Below are positions 47,732 to 53,767 of a DNA stretch of 64,000 nucleotides, one piece after another. Each line of letters opens with the position of its first letter. Positions within the stretch are counted from its first letter, which is position 1. The notes beneath the pieces were generated by a model. It was not told the DNA's origin. It saw only the letters and a program-made list of their open reading frames with translations, and did no database searches. A program made the position numbers and the translations under genes. The stretch lies in the NCBI RefSeq assembly GCF_055900595.2, contig NZ_CM148325.1, one strand, 5' to 3'.

Positions 47732-48811
47732 TTACTGCATCATGACCTCACGAACGAAATCTTTTTTGAGCTGTGTACTGTACGCTTTGCCATAAAACTC
47801 CACCGTGGGCTCCGGGATCTCATTCAGATCCGGACGGAGCTGTTTGTTCATCGGCGTGGAGCCGAAGACTTTACTCAGTGCATGTTGCGTTTCAGGCTGA
47901 ATCAGCCAGTTGAGGAATAAGCGTGATGCCGCCGGATGTGGGCTGTTGGCGGCAATGGCAGCGATGTTACCGCCGCCAGGCATGCCAAACTCCGGTACGT
48001 AAAATTTCAGCCGCGAATTGATAGCCCCGGTTTTTTGTAGTCCGACAAGATGGTCTTCCCAGGATGGTGTCAGCATCAGCTCGCCGTCATTCAGGCGTGT
48101 CAGACTATCAGCACCGGAGGCCGTGCGGGTAATTTTGTCCTTATTAGCAGCAAACCACTGCCAGCCTTTCTGCCAGTTTTTCACCACTGCCGGGTCAACG
48201 CTCTCCGCTTCGCTGTTAAACGTGTCGCCCTGAGTAGTGACGATGCGCTGGATAAAGGCTTCCCCCGCGCCGCCGTTGTTCGGGTCGTTATAGCCGAACT
48301 TTTTCGGGTTGGCGTCGATAAAGCTCTGCAACTGCTCCAGCGTTTGTGGCAGCGCCCGGTCACCCATCTGCTGCGGGTCGTAAGCAAATCCGGTCTGGTT
48401 GCCCCAGAACGCCACGGCATAACCCTGGGTGTCAACGTTCTGAATCTGGTGAATGGCGTCGCCATAGCCCGGCAAATCGTCCACCTTCGCCAGCGCTTTC
48501 GCTCCCATTGCCACTGGCAGTTGCGCAACAGACAAGGCGATAACATCTATTTTACCCCTTTTTTTCCCCGCTTCTGCCAGCAACTTGTTCACGTTTCCGT
48601 CGATATTCCCTTCCGGGATGCGCACCTTAACGCCGTACTGCTGCTCAAAATCCTTCACAAAGCTGCGCCACTGCGGCTGTAAGTACCAGACGTTAAAGGT
48701 CACGCTGCCCTCTTTTTTCGCTTGGGCAATCAGGTCGGGGCTATCCGCCGCCGTTGCCAGCGAGCTGCACAGCAGGCCGCCCGCCAGAATCATCACTGTT
48801 TTTTTCATCAC
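47732..48811 (-). CDS. ABC transporter periplasmic substrate-binding protein (family 1)
   Basis: Signal peptide MMKKTVMILAGGLLCSSLATAA then SBP fold; same strand as two permeases and an ATPase. Confidence 0.75.
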   Translation of the reverse strand: MMKKTVMILAGGLLCSSLATAADSPDLIAQAKKEGSVTFNVWYLQPQWRSFVKDFEQQYGVKVRIPEGNIDGNVNKLLAEAGKKRGKIDVIALSVAQLPVAMGAKALAKVDDLPGYGDAIHQIQNVDTQGYAVAFWGNQTGFAYDPQQMGDRALPQTLEQLQSFIDANPKKFGYNDPNNGGAGEAFIQRIVTTQGDTFNSEAESVDPAVVKNWQKGWQWFAANKDKITRTASGADSLTRLNDGELMLTPSWEDHLVGLQKTGAINSRLKFYVPEFGMPGGGNIAAIAANSPHPAASRLFLNWLIQPETQHALSKVFGSTPMNKQLRPDLNEIPEPTVEFYGKAYSTQLKKDFVREVMMQ

Positions 48812-48829
48812 ATTATCTCCTGTAAAAGG

Positions 48830-49666
48830 TCAGGCTTTTCCCGTGGATTGCGACAGATAGTTCCCCTTCAGCAACTTCTCAATGATGACCATCAGGATGA
48901 CATTGGGGATCACCAGAATCATCGACACCACCGCCGCATCCGGGCGGACGAAGGAGTAGCCAAGGAAAGAGTAAAGAATGGTCGGAACGGTGATAAAGTC
49001 CGGCGCGCCCAGCACGTATGAGATGCCGAACTCTTCCAGGCTTCGCACCAGACAAAAAATCAGCGCCGCCAGGAAGCTCGGTTTTAACAGCGGCAGATAG
49101 GCATTGCAGAAGGTGTCCCACGCGCCGGAGCCCAGGTCGCGGCTGGCGTCGATCAGATCCTGCGGCACAGACTTAAACCCCGCAGACATAATGCGGATCG
49201 AATAGGGTAGCGTCAGTACCGTATGGCCGATAACAATGCTGATAAACGCGTTGTCGATATTGAGGTTGATCAGCATGGCGCTGAAAAAAATCCCGATCAG
49301 CATCCCCGGCATCACCAGCGGGATCAGCGTCAGCATCTCCGCCACCGCCTTACCGCGAAAGGTCATGCGCCCGAAGGCATACGCGGTGGGTAGCGACAGC
49401 AGCAGGCTGGCGACCGCTACCGCAGGCGCAATGGTGTAGCTGTTGAACAGCGCCTCGGAAAGCGAAGTCTTTTCCCATACCAGCAGCCAGCGGCTGAACG
49501 ACAGCACCGGCGGGAAGATATCCGGGTAGCTCCACGGATGGGCCGGGTCAACCAGCGACCAGAGGATCGCCATGCCGAACGGCATACCCAGCCAGATCAG
49601 ATTAGCGACCACGAAGAAGATCAGCGAAATCGTCACCACCCGGCGACCGTTGGCAGTGTGGCTCAT
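48830..49666 (-). CDS. ABC transporter permease
   Basis: Six-TM permease with EAA-like loop. Confidence 0.8.
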   Translation of the reverse strand: MSHTANGRRVVTISLIFFVVANLIWLGMPFGMAILWSLVDPAHPWSYPDIFPPVLSFSRWLLVWEKTSLSEALFNSYTIAPAVAVASLLLSLPTAYAFGRMTFRGKAVAEMLTLIPLVMPGMLIGIFFSAMLINLNIDNAFISIVIGHTVLTLPYSIRIMSAGFKSVPQDLIDASRDLGSGAWDTFCNAYLPLLKPSFLAALIFCLVRSLEEFGISYVLGAPDFITVPTILYSFLGYSFVRPDAAVVSMILVIPNVILMVIIEKLLKGNYLSQSTGKA

Positions 49667-51808: not shown

Positions 51809-52639
51809 ATGGCGTTTAACTTTCACCGGGCGGCAGAGGGGATCGTGCTGGCCAACAGCCACCGAGGTTATTCCAGCTGCGCGCCGGAGAACACATTCCC
51901 GGCCTTTGAAGCCGCCCGCCTGGCGGGAACCCACTGTATTGAAATCGATATCCACCTGACGGCGGATAACCAACTGGTGGTCACGCACGATCACCGTATC
52001 GACCGGGTATCCACCGGACACGGATTTGTGGAGCAGATGACGTACCCGCAGCTGCTGGCGTGCGACTTTGGCGTGAAATACCATCCGTCGTTTGCCGGAA
52101 CGCGCATCCCCTTGCTGGCGGACGTGCTGCGCTGGGCGGTGGAAAACAGCATGGGGCTGATTGTTGAGGTCAAACAGCGCAACCGCCATGACGAGTTTGT
52201 GGCGGCGCTGGTCGCACTGCTGCATGAGCATCTGGATGCCCTCGGCCATATCCAGTTGCTGGGCTTCAACCATGTGCTGATCAACCGGGTGAAGGCGCAA
52301 ATCCCGCAACTGGCGTTACAGGTGGTGACGCTGGAGCGCTACAATAACCAGCTTGCGGCTGTACAGCAGTCCAATGCCGGATGCGTCTGCTTTGAGTTCG
52401 AGTTCGCCCATATCGACGACCTGCGGGCCTACAAAAATGCCGGACTGGGCGTGCGGATGTATCTGCATGAAATGAAAAACGGCATGACGCCGCTGGAGCA
52501 GTACGACTATAAATTCGGCTGTGACAGTCGTCCGGTGATTATCGGCTGGATGCAGGCGGGGCTGATTGATATGCTCAGCCACGATGATATTCCGTATTTG
52601 CAGGGACTGATTGAAGAAGCAGGCCTGCGCTGGAACTAG
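51809..52639 (+). CDS. Glycerophosphodiester phosphodiesterase (GDPD family)
   Basis: HRG...PENT...E(I)D(I)H GDPD catalytic motifs. Confidence 0.8.
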   Translation: MAFNFHRAAEGIVLANSHRGYSSCAPENTFPAFEAARLAGTHCIEIDIHLTADNQLVVTHDHRIDRVSTGHGFVEQMTYPQLLACDFGVKYHPSFAGTRIPLLADVLRWAVENSMGLIVEVKQRNRHDEFVAALVALLHEHLDALGHIQLLGFNHVLINRVKAQIPQLALQVVTLERYNNQLAAVQQSNAGCVCFEFEFAHIDDLRAYKNAGLGVRMYLHEMKNGMTPLEQYDYKFGCDSRPVIIGWMQAGLIDMLSHDDIPYLQGLIEEAGLRWN

Positions 52640-52654
52640 AAAAATAAGGACACC

Positions 52655-53767
52655 ATGAACGCCCACTCTGAACGCCTTGAACTACGTGGTTCGCAGCGCC
52701 TGCTGCTGGAACTGATCCGTCTCCACGCCCCGGTGACGCGGGCTGAACTGGCACGGCTGTCGGGACTGACGGCGGGGGCGATCACCCAACAGTGCCGAGA
52801 GCTGATGTTCTCCGGCCTGGTGGTGGAAGGGGAGCGCAATACCGGGCAGCGCGGCCAGCCGTCGCTGCCGTTGCGCCTTAACCCCGGCGGCGGTTGTGCT
52901 ATCGGGTTGTCGTTCAGTCCCGGTTTTATCGATATGACGGTGGTCGATCTCAGTGGTCGCCAGCTGCTGTCGCTTTGCGAAGCACATCAGGAGAATCAGC
53001 CACTGGAGGCCTCTCTCGCGCAGATCAAAACCTTGGTGGAGAAAATGCTGAAAAAGCGCCAGCTCCAGCACGCACGTATTCTCGGCATTGGCTATGCAGT
53101 GCCCGGATTTCTGAAAGCGGATGGTCGCAAGCGCCACAGCGTACCGTGGCTGGAGAGCTGGCGTGAGGTAGATCTCCAGCAGGCGTTTGCCGACAACCTG
53201 CCGTGGCCGACGTGGGTGGAAAATAATGCCAACGCCTCGGCGGTAGGTGAACTGTACAGCGGCAAATGGAATGCGTACAGCGATCTAACCTTTATCGACC
53301 TTGGCTACGGTATCGGCGCGGGTATTATCTCCGGGAATAAAATGCTACGCGGCGGGTTCTGCAATGCCGGTGAAGTCGGGATGGCGTTTCCATCCGGTAC
53401 ACCGCGCCCGTCGTATAAGGATTTGCTTGCCACACTGGAGCGTGAAGGATTCAGTGAAACTAAGCTACCGGAGCTGATAGCCGGGCAGCACCCACTGCTG
53501 GAAAGCTGGTTTGAACGCTGTCGTGGCCAGGTGGAGCAGACGCTCTTCAGCTGTGTGCAGTGGGTAGACCCGCAAATCATCGTACTCGGTGGCGCGATGC
53601 CGAAACCGATTATCAGTCGTCTGGTGCAGGAACTGAATCAACTGATGGAAGCCTGCCTCGATCCCAACCGCCCCAGAGTGAAGTTAGCTGCCTCTTCGAT
53701 GGGAGCACAGAGTGCGTCATGCGGCGCGGCGATGCTCCCGTTGTATAAGGTGATTAATAATGGATAA
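52655..53767 (+). CDS. ROK-family transcriptional regulator (NagC/Mlc-like)
   Basis: N-terminal HTH plus ROK sugar-kinase-like fold. Confidence 0.8.
   Translation: MNAHSERLELRGSQRLLLELIRLHAPVTRAELARLSGLTAGAITQQCRELMFSGLVVEGERNTGQRGQPSLPLRLNPGGGCAIGLSFSPGFIDMTVVDLSGRQLLSLCEAHQENQPLEASLAQIKTLVEKMLKKRQLQHARILGIGYAVPGFLKADGRKRHSVPWLESWREVDLQQAFADNLPWPTWVENNANASAVGELYSGKWNAYSDLTFIDLGYGIGAGIISGNKMLRGGFCNAGEVGMAFPSGTPRPSYKDLLATLEREGFSETKLPELIAGQHPLLESWFERCRGQVEQTLFSCVQWVDPQIIVLGGAMPKPIISRLVQELNQLMEACLDPNRPRVKLAASSMGAQSASCGAAMLPLYKVINNG

What the first reader, a model, noticed from the sequence alone, without database searches (positions are those of the whole stretch)
47732..53767. ABC importer with glycerophosphodiester phosphodiesterase and ROK regulator
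A four-gene ABC importer is divergent from a GDPD-family phosphodiesterase gene followed by a ROK-family regulator. The GDPD pairing suggests uptake of a glycerophosphodiester or related phosphoester, but the binding protein does not obviously resemble UgpB, so the substrate may differ.
Basis: inference. Interest (0 to 1): 0.3.

Follow-up and report, generated by a model that had tools for sequence, protein, structure and literature searches.

The report
Phosphodiester nutrient import and cleavage module
This is a mobile six-gene unit in a few, mostly poultry-associated E. coli that most likely imports and splits a sugar-phosphate diester nutrient; in other animal pathogens the same unit sits next to secreted enzymes related to the plant-pathogen enzymes that make such "private" nutrients.

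Summary
Window 47732-53767 encodes an intact four-gene ABC importer, transcribed divergently from a GDPD-family phosphodiesterase gene and a ROK-family regulator gene.

The six genes move as one unit. They are 90-93% identical in DNA to Salmonella diarizonae, Buttiauxella and Citrobacter, with sharp ends at 47710/47719 and 53758. Only 22 of 5426 complete E. coli genomes carry them.

The pairing is conserved in Enterobacterales, Vibrionaceae and part of Pasteurellaceae.

The glycerophosphodiester reading is only partly supported:
- The enzyme is not a UgpQ orthologue. Its closest characterised relative among those compared is AccF, the Agrobacterium enzyme that splits the imported sugar phosphodiester agrocinopine.
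- The binding protein belongs to an uncharacterised subfamily of the iron/polyamine/phosphonate/sugar-phosphate class, at most 18% identical to any solved structure.
- No Pho box is present.

In Salmonella, Pasteurella multocida, Citrobacter, Providencia and Proteus the module lies beside large secreted GDPD-family proteins. Their taxa match the "AvrBs2-like proteins" listed in a 2025 Science paper. That paper showed Xanthomonas AvrBs2 makes a sugar phosphodiester nutrient, with a ROK regulator and a 2H phosphodiesterase encoded nearby.

Best reading: an uptake-and-utilisation module for a sugar or polyol phosphodiester, here without the generating enzyme. The substrate is inferred, not shown.

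The parts
47710..53758 (.). Extent of the horizontally shared six-gene module
   Evidence: Window 47719-53758 is 92.8% identical in DNA to Salmonella diarizonae (L002) and 90.3% to Buttiauxella (L003). Window 47710-51684 and 51437-53758 are 90-91% identical to a Citrobacter freundii ICE (L087). Flanking DNA is unrelated. GC is 54-58% inside and 39-47% outside.
47732..48808 (-). Periplasmic substrate-binding protein (358 aa from the RefSeq ATG; a GTG at 48811 gives 359 aa). It has a Sec signal peptide ending ...SLATA/AD.
   Evidence: Pfam SBP_bac_8 4.9e-31. Best NCBIfam hit is a YnjB-like subfamily at 60 bits against a cut-off of 203. AF2 model pLDDT 88.6. Foldseek finds class II Fbp/Pot/PhnS/AfuA-type SBPs, all at most 18% identical. 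Profile search against PDB gives under 40 bits.
48830..49666 (-). ABC permease (278 aa), PotC-like
   Evidence: BPD_transp_1 1.5e-12. Best NCBIfam hit PotC, 82 bits against cut-off 326. 4-nt overlap with the upstream permease gene.
49663..50529 (-). ABC permease (288 aa), PotB-like
   Evidence: BPD_transp_1 8.1e-14. Best NCBIfam hit PotB, 80 bits against cut-off 348. 4-nt overlap with the ATPase gene.
50526..51593 (-). ABC ATPase (355 aa from the RefSeq start; an upstream in-frame ATG at 51608 gives 360 aa)
   Evidence: ABC_tran 3.6e-36. Best NCBIfam hits PhnT2, UgpC and PotA, all below cut-off. RefSeq start.
51594..51808 (.). Shared divergent control region (215 bp, AT-rich)
   Evidence: Sequence. 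Two blocks are conserved across eight Enterobacterales (alignment A2). The best Pho-box match is only 12 of 18.
51627..51658 (.). Two operator-like repeats (TTAAATTTACATACTAAA and TTAAATTTATGT) next to the ABC operon start
   Evidence: the repeat finder families D2 and D3. Invariant block in A2. The motif AARTTTAA occurs 56 times against 7.7 expected over 34 orthologous intergenic regions.
51656..51671 (.). CRP-like site TGTGA-N6-TCCTT (7 of 10 positions; one perfect half-site)
   Evidence: The equivalent position holds 10/10 TGTGA-N6-TCACA sites in five Pasteurellaceae loci (L014, L015, L016, L023, L038).
51756..51773 (.). Third operator-like repeat (TTAAATTTAAGTAGTAAA), about 35 bp upstream of the GDPD start codon
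51809..52639 (+). Cytoplasmic AccF-like GDPD-family phosphodiesterase (276 aa)
   Evidence: Pfam GDPD 95.4 bits. UgpQ equivalog model 107 bits against cut-off 264. blastp: Rhizobium acc-like GDPD 35%, E 2e-48; AccF 33%, E 3e-35, full length; UgpQ 27% over 205 aa, E 3e-19. hhalign 1e-50 against 6e-19. H18 R19 E27 N28 E45 D47 H60 E120 K122 are invariant with AccF and UgpQ. No signal peptide.
52655..53767 (+). ROK-family transcriptional regulator (370 aa) with an N-terminal winged HTH and no Cys-rich zinc motif
   Evidence: Pfam ROK 3.7e-24 plus HTH_24/MarR_2. Mlc and NagC models at 74 and 70 bits against cut-offs 530 and 650. PDB 7rhe 3.9e-29, Mlc about 1e-17. None of 49 ROK neighbours of this SBP family has the CxCGxxGC motif.

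Best explanation
This is a self-contained, horizontally mobile uptake-and-utilisation module for a small anionic phosphodiester. The substrate is most likely a sugar or polyol phosphodiester of the agrocinopine/xanthosan kind, rather than a classical glycerophosphodiester. Proposed mechanism: (1) the periplasmic SBP captures the diester; (2) the Pot-type ABC transporter (two permeases and one ATPase) moves it into the cytoplasm; (3) the cytoplasmic AccF-like GDPD enzyme hydrolyses the diester bond to give an alcohol or sugar plus a sugar or polyol phosphate, which enters central metabolism; (4) the ROK protein, co-transcribed with the enzyme, represses both divergent units through the repeated TTAAATTTA-type sites until the substrate or its cleavage product binds it, probably with CRP input. 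In several other animal-associated bacteria the same module is encoded beside large secreted GDPD-family proteins of the ACS/AvrBs2 type, which presumably produce or release the compound. The E. coli copy lacks that gene, so it would consume a compound made by other bacteria or present in the host. Shown here: gene content and integrity, family assignments, catalytic residues, conserved synteny, mobility, linkage to the large GDPD family, and the conserved intergenic motif. Inferred: the substrate class, the direction of the enzyme reaction, ROK as repressor of both units, and the scavenger role.
For: Conserved pairing of this SBP family with a cytoplasmic small GDPD (34 of 75 loci), a ROK regulator (49 of 75) and other phosphoester enzymes: DUF1868 2H phosphodiesterase in 21 loci, plus IMPase-family, HAD and histidine acid phosphatases and PMM/PGM. 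The enzyme groups with AccF-type sugar-phosphodiester hydrolases rather than UgpQ or GlpQ, with the catalytic set intact. AccF cleaves imported agrocinopine A to sucrose and arabinose-2-phosphate (PMC4526662). Large secreted GDPD proteins lie directly adjacent to the module in Salmonella enterica (L083, with a porin), Pasteurella multocida (L084, L085, with a Cof-type HAD phosphatase), Citrobacter freundii (L087), Providencia stuartii (L051) and Proteus (L007). An analogous SBP-ATPase-permease-small GDPD-large GDPD-HAD cluster occurs in Trueperella pyogenes (L086). The taxa holding this large-GDPD family match the list of 'AvrBs2-like proteins' in PMC12807533. Agrocinopine synthase aligns with it better (E 5e-7, 164 columns) than with any other GDPD group tested (43 columns or fewer). 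In Xanthomonas the avrBs2 cluster also encodes a ROK regulator and a 2H phosphoesterase that hydrolyses the sugar phosphodiester xanthosan. No Pho box; CRP-type sites in orthologous promoters. The SBP class includes known phospho-ligand binders: AfuA, VcA0625 (G6P), PhnS and P5PA.
Against: No ligand, enzyme or expression data exist for any member, so the substrate class rests on context. GDPD-family enzymes including AccF relatives could still act on glycerophospho-X compounds such as glycerophosphoinositol. I could not obtain the sequences of AvrBs2, XanR or XanP, so membership of the large GDPDs in the AvrBs2 clade, and of DUF1868 proteins in the XanP family, rests on the taxon list, on ACS similarity and on motif spacing only. 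The large GDPDs carry Sec signal peptides, unlike the type III effector AvrBs2, so they may be hydrolases of extracellular phosphodiester polymers rather than synthetases. Many Pasteurellaceae (Haemophilus, Aggregatibacter) have the ABC operon without GDPD or ROK, so SBP specificity may vary across the family. The window CRP site is weak (7 of 10).
Confidence: 0.52

Rival explanations
1. Classical glycerophosphodiester scavenging. The transporter imports glycerophosphocholine, -ethanolamine, -glycerol or -inositol. The GDPD enzyme releases glycerol-3-phosphate in the cytoplasm, as UgpQ does, providing a second, Pho-independent Ugp-like system.
For: Pfam GDPD match and a catalytic constellation identical to UgpQ. 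Cytoplasmic location as for UgpQ. ATPase close to UgpC (334 bits). IMPase-family and inositol-type genes (Gfo/Idh/MocA, xylose-isomerase-like TIM barrel) in some distant loci would fit glycerophosphoinositol.
Against: Not a UgpQ equivalog (107 bits against cut-off 264) and not a UgpB-type SBP. Closer to AccF than to UgpQ over the full length, including a C-terminal segment that UgpQ lacks. A ROK regulator and no Pho box. Linkage to ACS/AvrBs2-like proteins. E. coli already has Ugp and GlpT/GlpQ.
Confidence: 0.25
2. Salvage of fragments of phosphodiester-linked glycopolymers such as teichoic acids, phosphoglycan capsules or host phosphoglycans. Where present, the large secreted GDPD proteins would depolymerise the polymer outside the cell. 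The ABC system would import the repeat-unit diester, and the small GDPD would finish the cleavage. E. coli would feed on fragments released by neighbours.
For: The large GDPD proteins have Sec signal peptides. Actinobacterial members carry ricin-type lectin domains. A porin is encoded next to them in Salmonella. Extracellular UDP-sugar for an AvrBs2-type synthesis is unlikely to be available.
Against: No polymer-binding or polymer-lyase evidence. The nearest characterised relatives of the large family by profile comparison are synthases (ACS), and the published AvrBs2 activity is synthetic. This reading differs from the best explanation only in the origin of the diester, not in how the window module works.
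Confidence: 0.18
3. The transporter and the GDPD/ROK pair are functionally unrelated neighbours. On this reading the ABC system is a polyamine, iron or phosphonate importer, as its family resemblance suggests.
For: Permeases and SBP find PotB, PotC, PhnS and Fbp-type models and structures first.
Against: All those matches are far below the equivalog cut-offs and at most 18% identical. The association with small GDPD and/or ROK holds in 3 gammaproteobacterial families and the six genes transfer as one block. Shared conserved motifs lie at both ends of the divergent promoter region.
Confidence: 0.04

Closest known systems
Agrobacterium acc (agrocinopine catabolism) operon: AccR, AccA-BCDE, AccF, AccG
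   Same: The logic is the same: an ABC importer with a dedicated SBP, a cytoplasmic GDPD-family phosphodiesterase that splits an imported sugar phosphodiester, and a repressor. The enzyme is homologous: AccF is the closest characterised relative of the window GDPD among those compared (33% identity full length; hhalign E 1e-50). As with ACS and AccF, related loci pair an ACS/AvrBs2-like large GDPD with the AccF-like small one.
   Different: The transporter is unrelated. AccA is an oligopeptide-type (cluster C) SBP with two ATPases, whereas this is a Pot/Fbp-type SBP_bac_8 system with one ATPase. The regulator is ROK, not the AccR repressor of the acc operon. There is no AccG phosphatase in the window. 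The hosts are animal-associated gammaproteobacteria, and the substrate is unknown.
Xanthomonas avrBs2-xanR-xanT-xanP 'generation-uptake-utilisation' system (PMC12807533)
   Same: A ROK-family regulator is encoded with a phosphodiesterase and a dedicated uptake component for a sugar phosphodiester. Related loci of this SBP family carry DUF1868 2H phosphodiesterases (21 of 75), whose HxT/S motif spacing of 100-105 residues is like XanP's 105. In some genera they also carry a large GDPD-family protein from the taxa the paper lists as AvrBs2-like.
   Different: The window has no 2H enzyme, no TonB-dependent receptor and no AvrBs2-like gene. Cleavage is by a GDPD-family enzyme. Uptake is by an inner-membrane ABC system, a step not identified in the Xanthomonas study. 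The large GDPDs here have Sec signal peptides, whereas AvrBs2 is a type III effector. Sequence relatedness to XanR, XanP and AvrBs2 was not tested because no sequences were available.
E. coli UgpBAEC-UgpQ glycerophosphodiester/G3P system
   Same: An ABC importer plus a cytoplasmic GDPD-family enzyme with the same catalytic residues; the ATPase is similar to UgpC.
   Different: UgpB is a MalE-like CUT1 SBP and its permeases are of CUT1 type; here they are Pot-type. UgpQ is only 27% identical over 205 aa. Ugp is Pho-regulated and in one operon, whereas this locus is divergent with a ROK regulator and no Pho box.
AfuABC / VcA0625-27 sugar-phosphate ABC importers
   Same: An SBP of the 'ferric-binding-protein-like' class that binds a phosphorylated sugar rather than iron. 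Structural neighbours of the model include AfuA (4r72) and VcA0625 (8x1a).
   Different: Only 14-18% identity. Those systems take phosphomonoesters and have no linked phosphodiesterase or ROK regulator.

Membership tests
Ugp system (UgpBAEC-UgpQ) | UgpB-type (CUT1, MalE-like) binding protein and CUT1 permeases | tested here: not met
   There is no UgpB, UgpA or UgpE model among the NCBIfam hits. Best hits are YnjB-like and PhnS for the SBP and PotB/PotC for the permeases.
Ugp system (UgpBAEC-UgpQ) | UgpQ orthologue (NCBIfam equivalog NF006989, cut-off 264 bits) | tested here: not met
   107 bits. 27% identity over 205 of 276 aa.
Ugp system (UgpBAEC-UgpQ) | Pho-regulon control (Pho box in the promoter) | tested here: not met
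   The best match to an 18-nt Pho box consensus in the intergenic region is 12 of 18. This was a consensus scan only.
GDPD superfamily (PF03009) active phosphodiesterase | Pfam match above gathering score and the catalytic His/Arg/Glu/Asp/His/Glu/Lys set | tested here: met
   95.4 bits against 23.6. H18 R19 E27 N28 E45 D47 H60 E120 K122 are invariant with AccF and UgpQ.
AccF-type sugar-phosphodiester phosphodiesterase | Full-length homology to AccF that is closer than to UgpQ or GlpQ | tested here: met
   hhalign small family against AccF gives E 1.2e-50 over 264 columns, against 6e-19 over 206 columns for UgpQ and 1.7e-12 for GlpQ. tblastn finds 134 Agrobacterium plasmids, and one of the matched genes (pAtK84b) is annotated accF. 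Only a small reference set was compared and no full phylogeny was built.
AccF-type sugar-phosphodiester phosphodiesterase | Hydrolysis of a sugar phosphodiester | not testable with these tools
   This needs an enzyme assay.
acc operon (whole system) | AccA-type oligopeptide-class SBP, two ATPases, the AccR repressor (annotated only as 'transcriptional repressor' in L077) and the AccG phosphatase | tested here: not met
   The window has an SBP_bac_8 SBP, one ATPase, a ROK regulator and no phosphatase.
Xanthomonas xan/avrBs2 system | ROK-family regulator in the cluster | tested here: met
   Pfam ROK plus a winged HTH. Orthology to XanR was not tested because no sequence was available.
Xanthomonas xan/avrBs2 system | 2H phosphoesterase (XanP) | tested here: not met
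   There is none in the window. DUF1868 2H phosphodiesterases occur in 21 of 75 related loci.
Xanthomonas xan/avrBs2 system | AvrBs2-clade GDPD-derived synthetase encoded nearby | tested here: not met
   tblastn of the large GDPDs against the window finds only the small GDPD N-terminus. Blastn of two large-GDPD genes finds no match in 5426 E. coli genomes; this is DNA-level sensitivity only. The gene is present beside the module in Salmonella, Pasteurella, Citrobacter, Providencia and Proteus.
Xanthomonas xan/avrBs2 system | TonB-dependent outer-membrane transporter (XanT) | tested here: not met
   The module has no outer-membrane component. A porin is linked in Salmonella L083.
Pot/Phn-type (POPT-like) ABC importers | One ATPase, two PotB/PotC-like permeases and one class II SBP | tested here: met
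Pot/Phn-type (POPT-like) ABC importers | Orthology to a member of known specificity (PotD, PotF, PhnS, YdcS, ferric FbpA) | tested here: not met
   All equivalog models score far below cut-off (33 bits or less for PhnS, 19 for YdcS). PDB relatives are at most 18% identical and under 40 bits.
ROK repressors of the Mlc/NagC type | N-terminal HTH plus ROK sugar-binding domain | tested here: met
   HTH_24/MarR_2 at residues 12-62 and ROK at 93-242.
ROK repressors of the Mlc/NagC type | Cys-rich zinc motif (CxCGxxGC) after the NAGE motif | tested here: not met
   It is absent in the window protein and in all 49 ROK neighbours of this SBP family.

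The most novel reading that the evidence does not exclude
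The module is the receiver half of an opine-like 'make, import, consume' nutrition system in animal-associated bacteria (Salmonella, Citrobacter, Providencia/Proteus, Pasteurella multocida, and by analogy Trueperella and Corynebacterium). In this system a secreted ACS/AvrBs2-clade enzyme generates a private sugar phosphodiester. A previously uncharacterised SBP subfamily of the Fbp/Pot class imports it, and an AccF-like enzyme cleaves it under ROK control. The E. coli copy, which lacks the generator, would be a cheater that exploits the compound in the avian gut. This would extend the Agrobacterium/Xanthomonas principle from plants to animals, identify the missing inner-membrane uptake step, and define a new ligand class for this SBP fold.
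Probability: 0.35. Interest if true: 0.75.

Novelty: new variant of a known kind. Interest (0 to 1): 0.55.

Why it matters
Dedicated phosphodiester nutrients have so far been a plant-pathogen story: agrocinopines for Agrobacterium and xanthosan for Xanthomonas. The 2025 xanthosan paper noted AvrBs2-like proteins in animal pathogens but, in the text available, described no uptake or catabolic partners for them.

The linkage found here supplies concrete candidates for those partners. It covers 7 contexts in six gammaproteobacterial genera, all 4 large-GDPD look-ups that returned a contig (including an analogous cluster in Trueperella), and several further shared-contig cases. It makes the idea testable in tractable organisms.

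It also gives a functional hypothesis for an SBP subfamily found in Yersinia pestis, Salmonella, Klebsiella, Vibrio and Pasteurellaceae that is currently annotated only generically. It may point to a niche-specific carbon source for the rare, mainly poultry-derived E. coli that carry the module on a virulence-type island.

If the substrate turns out to be an ordinary glycerophosphodiester, the finding is a routine accessory nutrient locus.

Tried and rejected
- **Sequence and profile searches of the SBP against PDB.** Only weak matches (under 40 bits) to iron, polyamine and maltose binders. They do not assign a ligand.
- **Foldseek of a good AF2 model.** It confirms the fold class only.
- **Literature searches.** Searches for glycerophosphoinositol ABC systems and for the RefSeq protein accessions gave nothing relevant. 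A search for follow-ups on xanthosan found none that describe this module.
- **Retrieving AvrBs2, XanR and XanP sequences.** PDB holds no AvrBs2. The paper's supplement has no sequences or accessions. Direct tests against the Xanthomonas proteins could therefore not be run.
- **Hypothesis that the window GDPD is itself AvrBs2/ACS-like.** Rejected: ACS aligns to it over only 25-43 residues.
- **Search for a large GDPD gene or remnant.** None in the window or in E. coli genomes.
- **sodC as part of the unit.** Rejected: homology with other genera stops 13-22 bp beyond the SBP stop codon, and sodC occurs alone on plasmids.
- **Large ORFs next to ROK in Buttiauxella, Serratia and Escherichia sp. 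loci.** They are unrelated: a LacI-SBP fusion, a protein with a radical-SAM-like CxxxCxxC motif, and a zinc-peptidase-like protein with an HExxH motif (the latter two judged from the sequences only, not searched).

Full report
**1. Observation**

- Minus strand: SBP 47732-48811, permease 48830-49666, permease 49663-50529, ATPase 50526-51608. RefSeq starts for the SBP and ATPase are 48808 and 51593.
- Plus strand: GDPD 51809-52639 and ROK regulator 52655-53767.

Pfam assigns SBP_bac_8 (4.9e-31), BPD_transp_1 twice, ABC_tran (3.6e-36), GDPD (7.5e-27) and ROK (3.7e-24) with an N-terminal winged helix-turn-helix. The ABC genes overlap by 4 nt twice. GDPD and ROK are 15 nt apart. The two units diverge from a 215-bp AT-rich region. 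All ORF lengths match those of orthologues, so the genes look intact.

**2. A discrete mobile unit, rare in E. coli**

The 7-kb region is found at 80% coverage or more in only 22 of 5426 complete E. coli genomes. Most listed hosts are chicken or chicken meat, with two from a kite and one from a human.

It lies in a mosaic island with IS remnants, a second sodC, an AbgT transporter and S6-peptidase autotransporters. Only part of the window (33574-61066) is collinear with strain CFSAN061770.

The six genes alone are shared with other genera:
- Window 47719-53758 is 92.8% identical in DNA to Salmonella enterica subsp. diarizonae and 90.3% to Buttiauxella warmboldiae.
- It is 90-91% identical to an integrative conjugative element of Citrobacter freundii.
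- In the Salmonella and Buttiauxella loci a 534-aa ORF follows the SBP gene. In Citrobacter a TraI_2 relaxase occupies that position.

GC content is 54-58% inside the unit and 39-47% outside it. The neighbouring sodC is not part of the unit; it occurs alone on poultry E. coli and E. albertii plasmids.

**3. What the transporter is**

None of the four proteins reaches an NCBIfam equivalog cut-off.
- The permeases resemble PotC and PotB most (82 and 80 bits; cut-offs 326 and 348).
- The ATPase resembles PhnT2, UgpC and PotA.
- The SBP's best hit is a YnjB-like subfamily at 60 bits (cut-off 203), then PhnS.

An AlphaFold model built on 30 homologues is confident (pLDDT 88.6). Foldseek against PDB returns class II binding proteins of many specificities: ferric FbpA/HitA/SfuA, PotD, PhnS (4r6y), thiamin-binding protein, the PLP binder P5PA, and the sugar-phosphate binders AfuA and VcA0625. 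All are at 12-18% identity. Sequence and profile searches of PDB stay under 40 bits.

It belongs to the broad Fbp/Pot/Phn class but to no characterised subfamily.

**4. Conserved genomic context**

SBP homologues occur in Salmonella, Klebsiella, Yersinia pestis, Serratia, Proteus, Providencia, Pantoea, Xenorhabdus, Vibrionaceae and Pasteurellaceae. They occur more distantly in Rhizobiales, Rhodobacterales, spirochaetes and Clostridia.

Among 75 species-representative loci:

| Group | Loci | Small GDPD adjacent | ROK adjacent |
|---|---|---|---|
| Enterobacterales | 11 | 10 | 10 |
| Vibrionaceae | 21 | 13 | 21 |
| Pasteurellaceae | 27 | 11 | 7 |
| Alphaproteobacteria | 12 | 0 | 10 |

A ROK regulator is adjacent in 49 of 75 loci overall.

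The other recurrent neighbours are almost all phosphoester enzymes:
- a DUF1868 2H phosphodiesterase in 21 loci, often together with the GDPD in Vibrio and Pantoea, and instead of it in Alphaproteobacteria;
- IMPase-family phosphatases in 5 loci;
- a histidine acid phosphatase in Avibacterium, and a Cof-type HAD phosphatase in Pasteurella multocida;
- PMM/PGM with a GT1 glycosyltransferase in one Vibrio group;
- a PHP phosphoesterase with inositol-type dehydrogenase and TIM-barrel genes in a spirochaete and a Clostridia locus.

**5. What the enzyme is**

The GDPD protein has no signal peptide; the HRG motif starts at residue 18. It keeps the full catalytic and metal set: H18, R19, E27, N28, E45, D47, H60, E120 and K122. 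These are invariant across the family, AccF and UgpQ.

It is not a UgpQ orthologue. It scores 107 bits against a cut-off of 264 and is 27% identical over 205 residues.

tblastn against plasmids finds full-length matches on 134 Agrobacterium and 169 Rhizobium plasmids. Those inspected lie in acc-type operons, and one of the matched genes (pAtK84b) is annotated accF, agrocinopine phosphodiesterase.

| Comparison | Method | Result |
|---|---|---|
| Rhizobium acc-like GDPD | blastp | E 2e-48 |
| AccF | blastp | E 3e-35 |
| UgpQ | blastp | E 3e-19 |
| AccF group | hhalign | E 1.2e-50, 264 columns |
| UgpQ | hhalign | E 6e-19, 206 columns |
| GlpQ | hhalign | E 1.7e-12 |

A C-terminal segment (GLIDxLxxDD) is shared with AccF and absent from UgpQ. 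[quoted passage not shown] The reference set is small and no full phylogeny was built. Still, the closest characterised relative is a sugar-phosphodiester hydrolase.

**6. Link to AvrBs2-like enzymes**

A full-text search surfaced a December 2025 paper (PMC12807533). It reports that:
- Xanthomonas AvrBs2, a GDPD-derived enzyme in a clade with agrocinopine synthase (ACS), makes the sugar phosphodiester xanthosan from UDP-galactose;
- the avrBs2 cluster encodes XanR (a ROK regulator), XanT (a TonB-dependent transporter) and XanP (a 2H phosphoesterase that hydrolyses xanthosan to Gal-1-P);

Screening my loci with ACS picked out a 518-aa GDPD-domain ORF next to the module in P. stuartii, and a 50%-identical one in Proteus.

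Homologues of that protein are about 570-850 aa long. They occur in exactly the taxa listed in the paper, plus Citrobacter, Lelliottia, Proteus, Erwinia mallotivora and some other Actinobacteria.

All four genomic contexts that could be retrieved show these large proteins beside a transporter-GDPD cluster:
- Salmonella enterica L083: two tandem large GDPDs, a porin, then SBP-permease-permease-ATPase and GDPD-ROK.
- P. multocida L084 and L085: two large GDPDs, then small GDPD, ABC, ROK and HAD.
- C. freundii L087.
- T. pyogenes L086: an analogous SBP-ATPase-fused permease-small GDPD-large GDPD-HAD cluster, with only distant sequence similarity to the window proteins.

ACS aligns to the large family over 164 columns (E 5e-7). 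It aligns to every other GDPD group over 43 columns or fewer.

I could not obtain AvrBs2, XanR or XanP sequences. Clade membership therefore rests on the taxon match and the ACS comparison. It was not tested directly.

The large proteins carry Sec-type signal peptides. This differs from the type III effector AvrBs2 and leaves open whether they synthesise a diester or release one from a polymer.

**7. The E. coli copy lacks the large enzyme**

tblastn of the large GDPDs against the window detects only the N-terminal motif region of the small GDPD. Blastn of the Citrobacter and Salmonella genes finds nothing in 5426 E. coli genomes. This test has DNA-level sensitivity only.

In Citrobacter the large gene lies immediately beyond the ROK gene. 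That is where homology to the window ends.

**8. Regulation**

The intergenic region holds three copies of a TTAAATTTA-type motif: two near the ABC start (51627-51658) and one about 35 bp upstream of the GDPD start (51756-51773). Both blocks are nearly invariant in eight Enterobacterales whose surrounding intergenic sequence has diverged.

Across 34 orthologous intergenic regions the 8-mer AARTTTAA occurs 56 times against 7.7 expected from shuffles. It typically sits near both ends.

A CRP-type site is perfect (TGTGA-N6-TCACA) in five Pasteurellaceae loci. In the window it is a 7-of-10 match with one perfect half-site, at 51656-51671. The best Pho-box match is 12 of 18.

The ROK proteins of this context all lack the Cys-rich zinc motif of Mlc and NagC.

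These data fit joint control of both units by the ROK protein plus catabolite control. They do not fit phosphate-starvation control. Binding was not shown.

**9. Conclusion**

The classical glycerophosphodiester reading is less likely than a sugar or polyol phosphodiester.

I put about 0.5 on the sugar/polyol phosphodiester uptake-utilisation model. I put about 0.25 on ordinary glycerophosphodiesters and about 0.2 on a variant in which the diester comes from depolymerised phosphoglycans. Very little weight goes on chance adjacency.

The system is a new variant of a known kind. It has acc/xan-like logic and an AccF-like enzyme, but a different transporter class and regulator, in animal-associated bacteria. 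The link between this module and the AvrBs2-like proteins of animal pathogens was not found in the searchable literature.

Noticed in passing
window 47112-47636 (-): A periplasmic Cu,Zn superoxide dismutase gene (sodC) lies 95 bp downstream of the SBP gene. It is 99.8% identical to sodC copies on E. albertii and E. coli poultry plasmids. It lies outside the block shared with other genera, so it is a separate acquisition.
   Followed up: partly
window 21616-25731 (+) and 57137-61012 (+): Two S6-peptidase (SPATE-type) autotransporter genes of 1371 and 1291 aa lie in the same 64-kb window, which marks this as a virulence-type island. A 1.2-kb stretch of the first is 77% identical to the second.
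   Followed up: partly
window 55266-56825 (+) and about 53862-54215 (+): An AbgT-family transporter gene sits between the module and the second SPATE gene. RefSeq annotates the corresponding stretch of strain CFSAN061770 as a yebF-family pseudogene with an internal stop.
   Followed up: no
window 36084-44517: A carbamate kinase / unnamed 516-aa ORF / DUF1116 / FdrA / DUF2877 gene cluster, named from the RefSeq annotation of the collinear strain, lies upstream on the minus strand. An AllS/PunR-like LysR regulator gene (43459-44517, +) follows it.
   Followed up: no
window 9634-14889: A LacI-family regulator gene, a PTS EIIC (GAT family) gene and a split transketolase gene pair form another accessory sugar locus on the island.
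   Followed up: no
L087 9665-12931 and 14951-18217 (Citrobacter freundii ICE): A perfect 3267-bp inverted duplication occurs here. Each copy carries an 813-aa large GDPD gene, and the copies flank an inverted GDPD-ROK segment and a 52-aa ABC ATPase fragment. This looks like a recent inversion or duplication inside the module.
   Followed up: partly
L047-L050, L060, L073 (Vibrio coralliilyticus, V. mediterranei and relatives): A variant locus lacks the small GDPD. It has PMM/PGM upstream of the ABC operon, then ROK, a 533-aa protein with no Pfam hit, a GT1 glycosyltransferase and a DUF1868 2H phosphodiesterase.
   Followed up: partly
L051 (Providencia stuartii NCTC11800) 3012-9094: The ROK, permease and SBP genes are split into shorter ORFs (223, 177 and 93+251 aa). 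These are either pseudogenes or indel errors in the assembly.
   Followed up: no
L017-L021, L024, L026, L029, L033, L036, L066 (Haemophilus, Aggregatibacter): The ABC operon (SBP 48% identical to the window's) occurs with neither a GDPD nor a ROK neighbour. SBP specificity, or the source of the cleaving enzyme, may therefore differ in these oral and respiratory commensals.
   Followed up: no
ROK neighbours in L002-L076; window 52655-53767: All 49 ROK regulators linked to this SBP family lack the CxCGxxGC zinc motif typical of ROK proteins. The segment after the NAGE motif is replaced by a Pro/Ser-rich stretch.
   Followed up: partly
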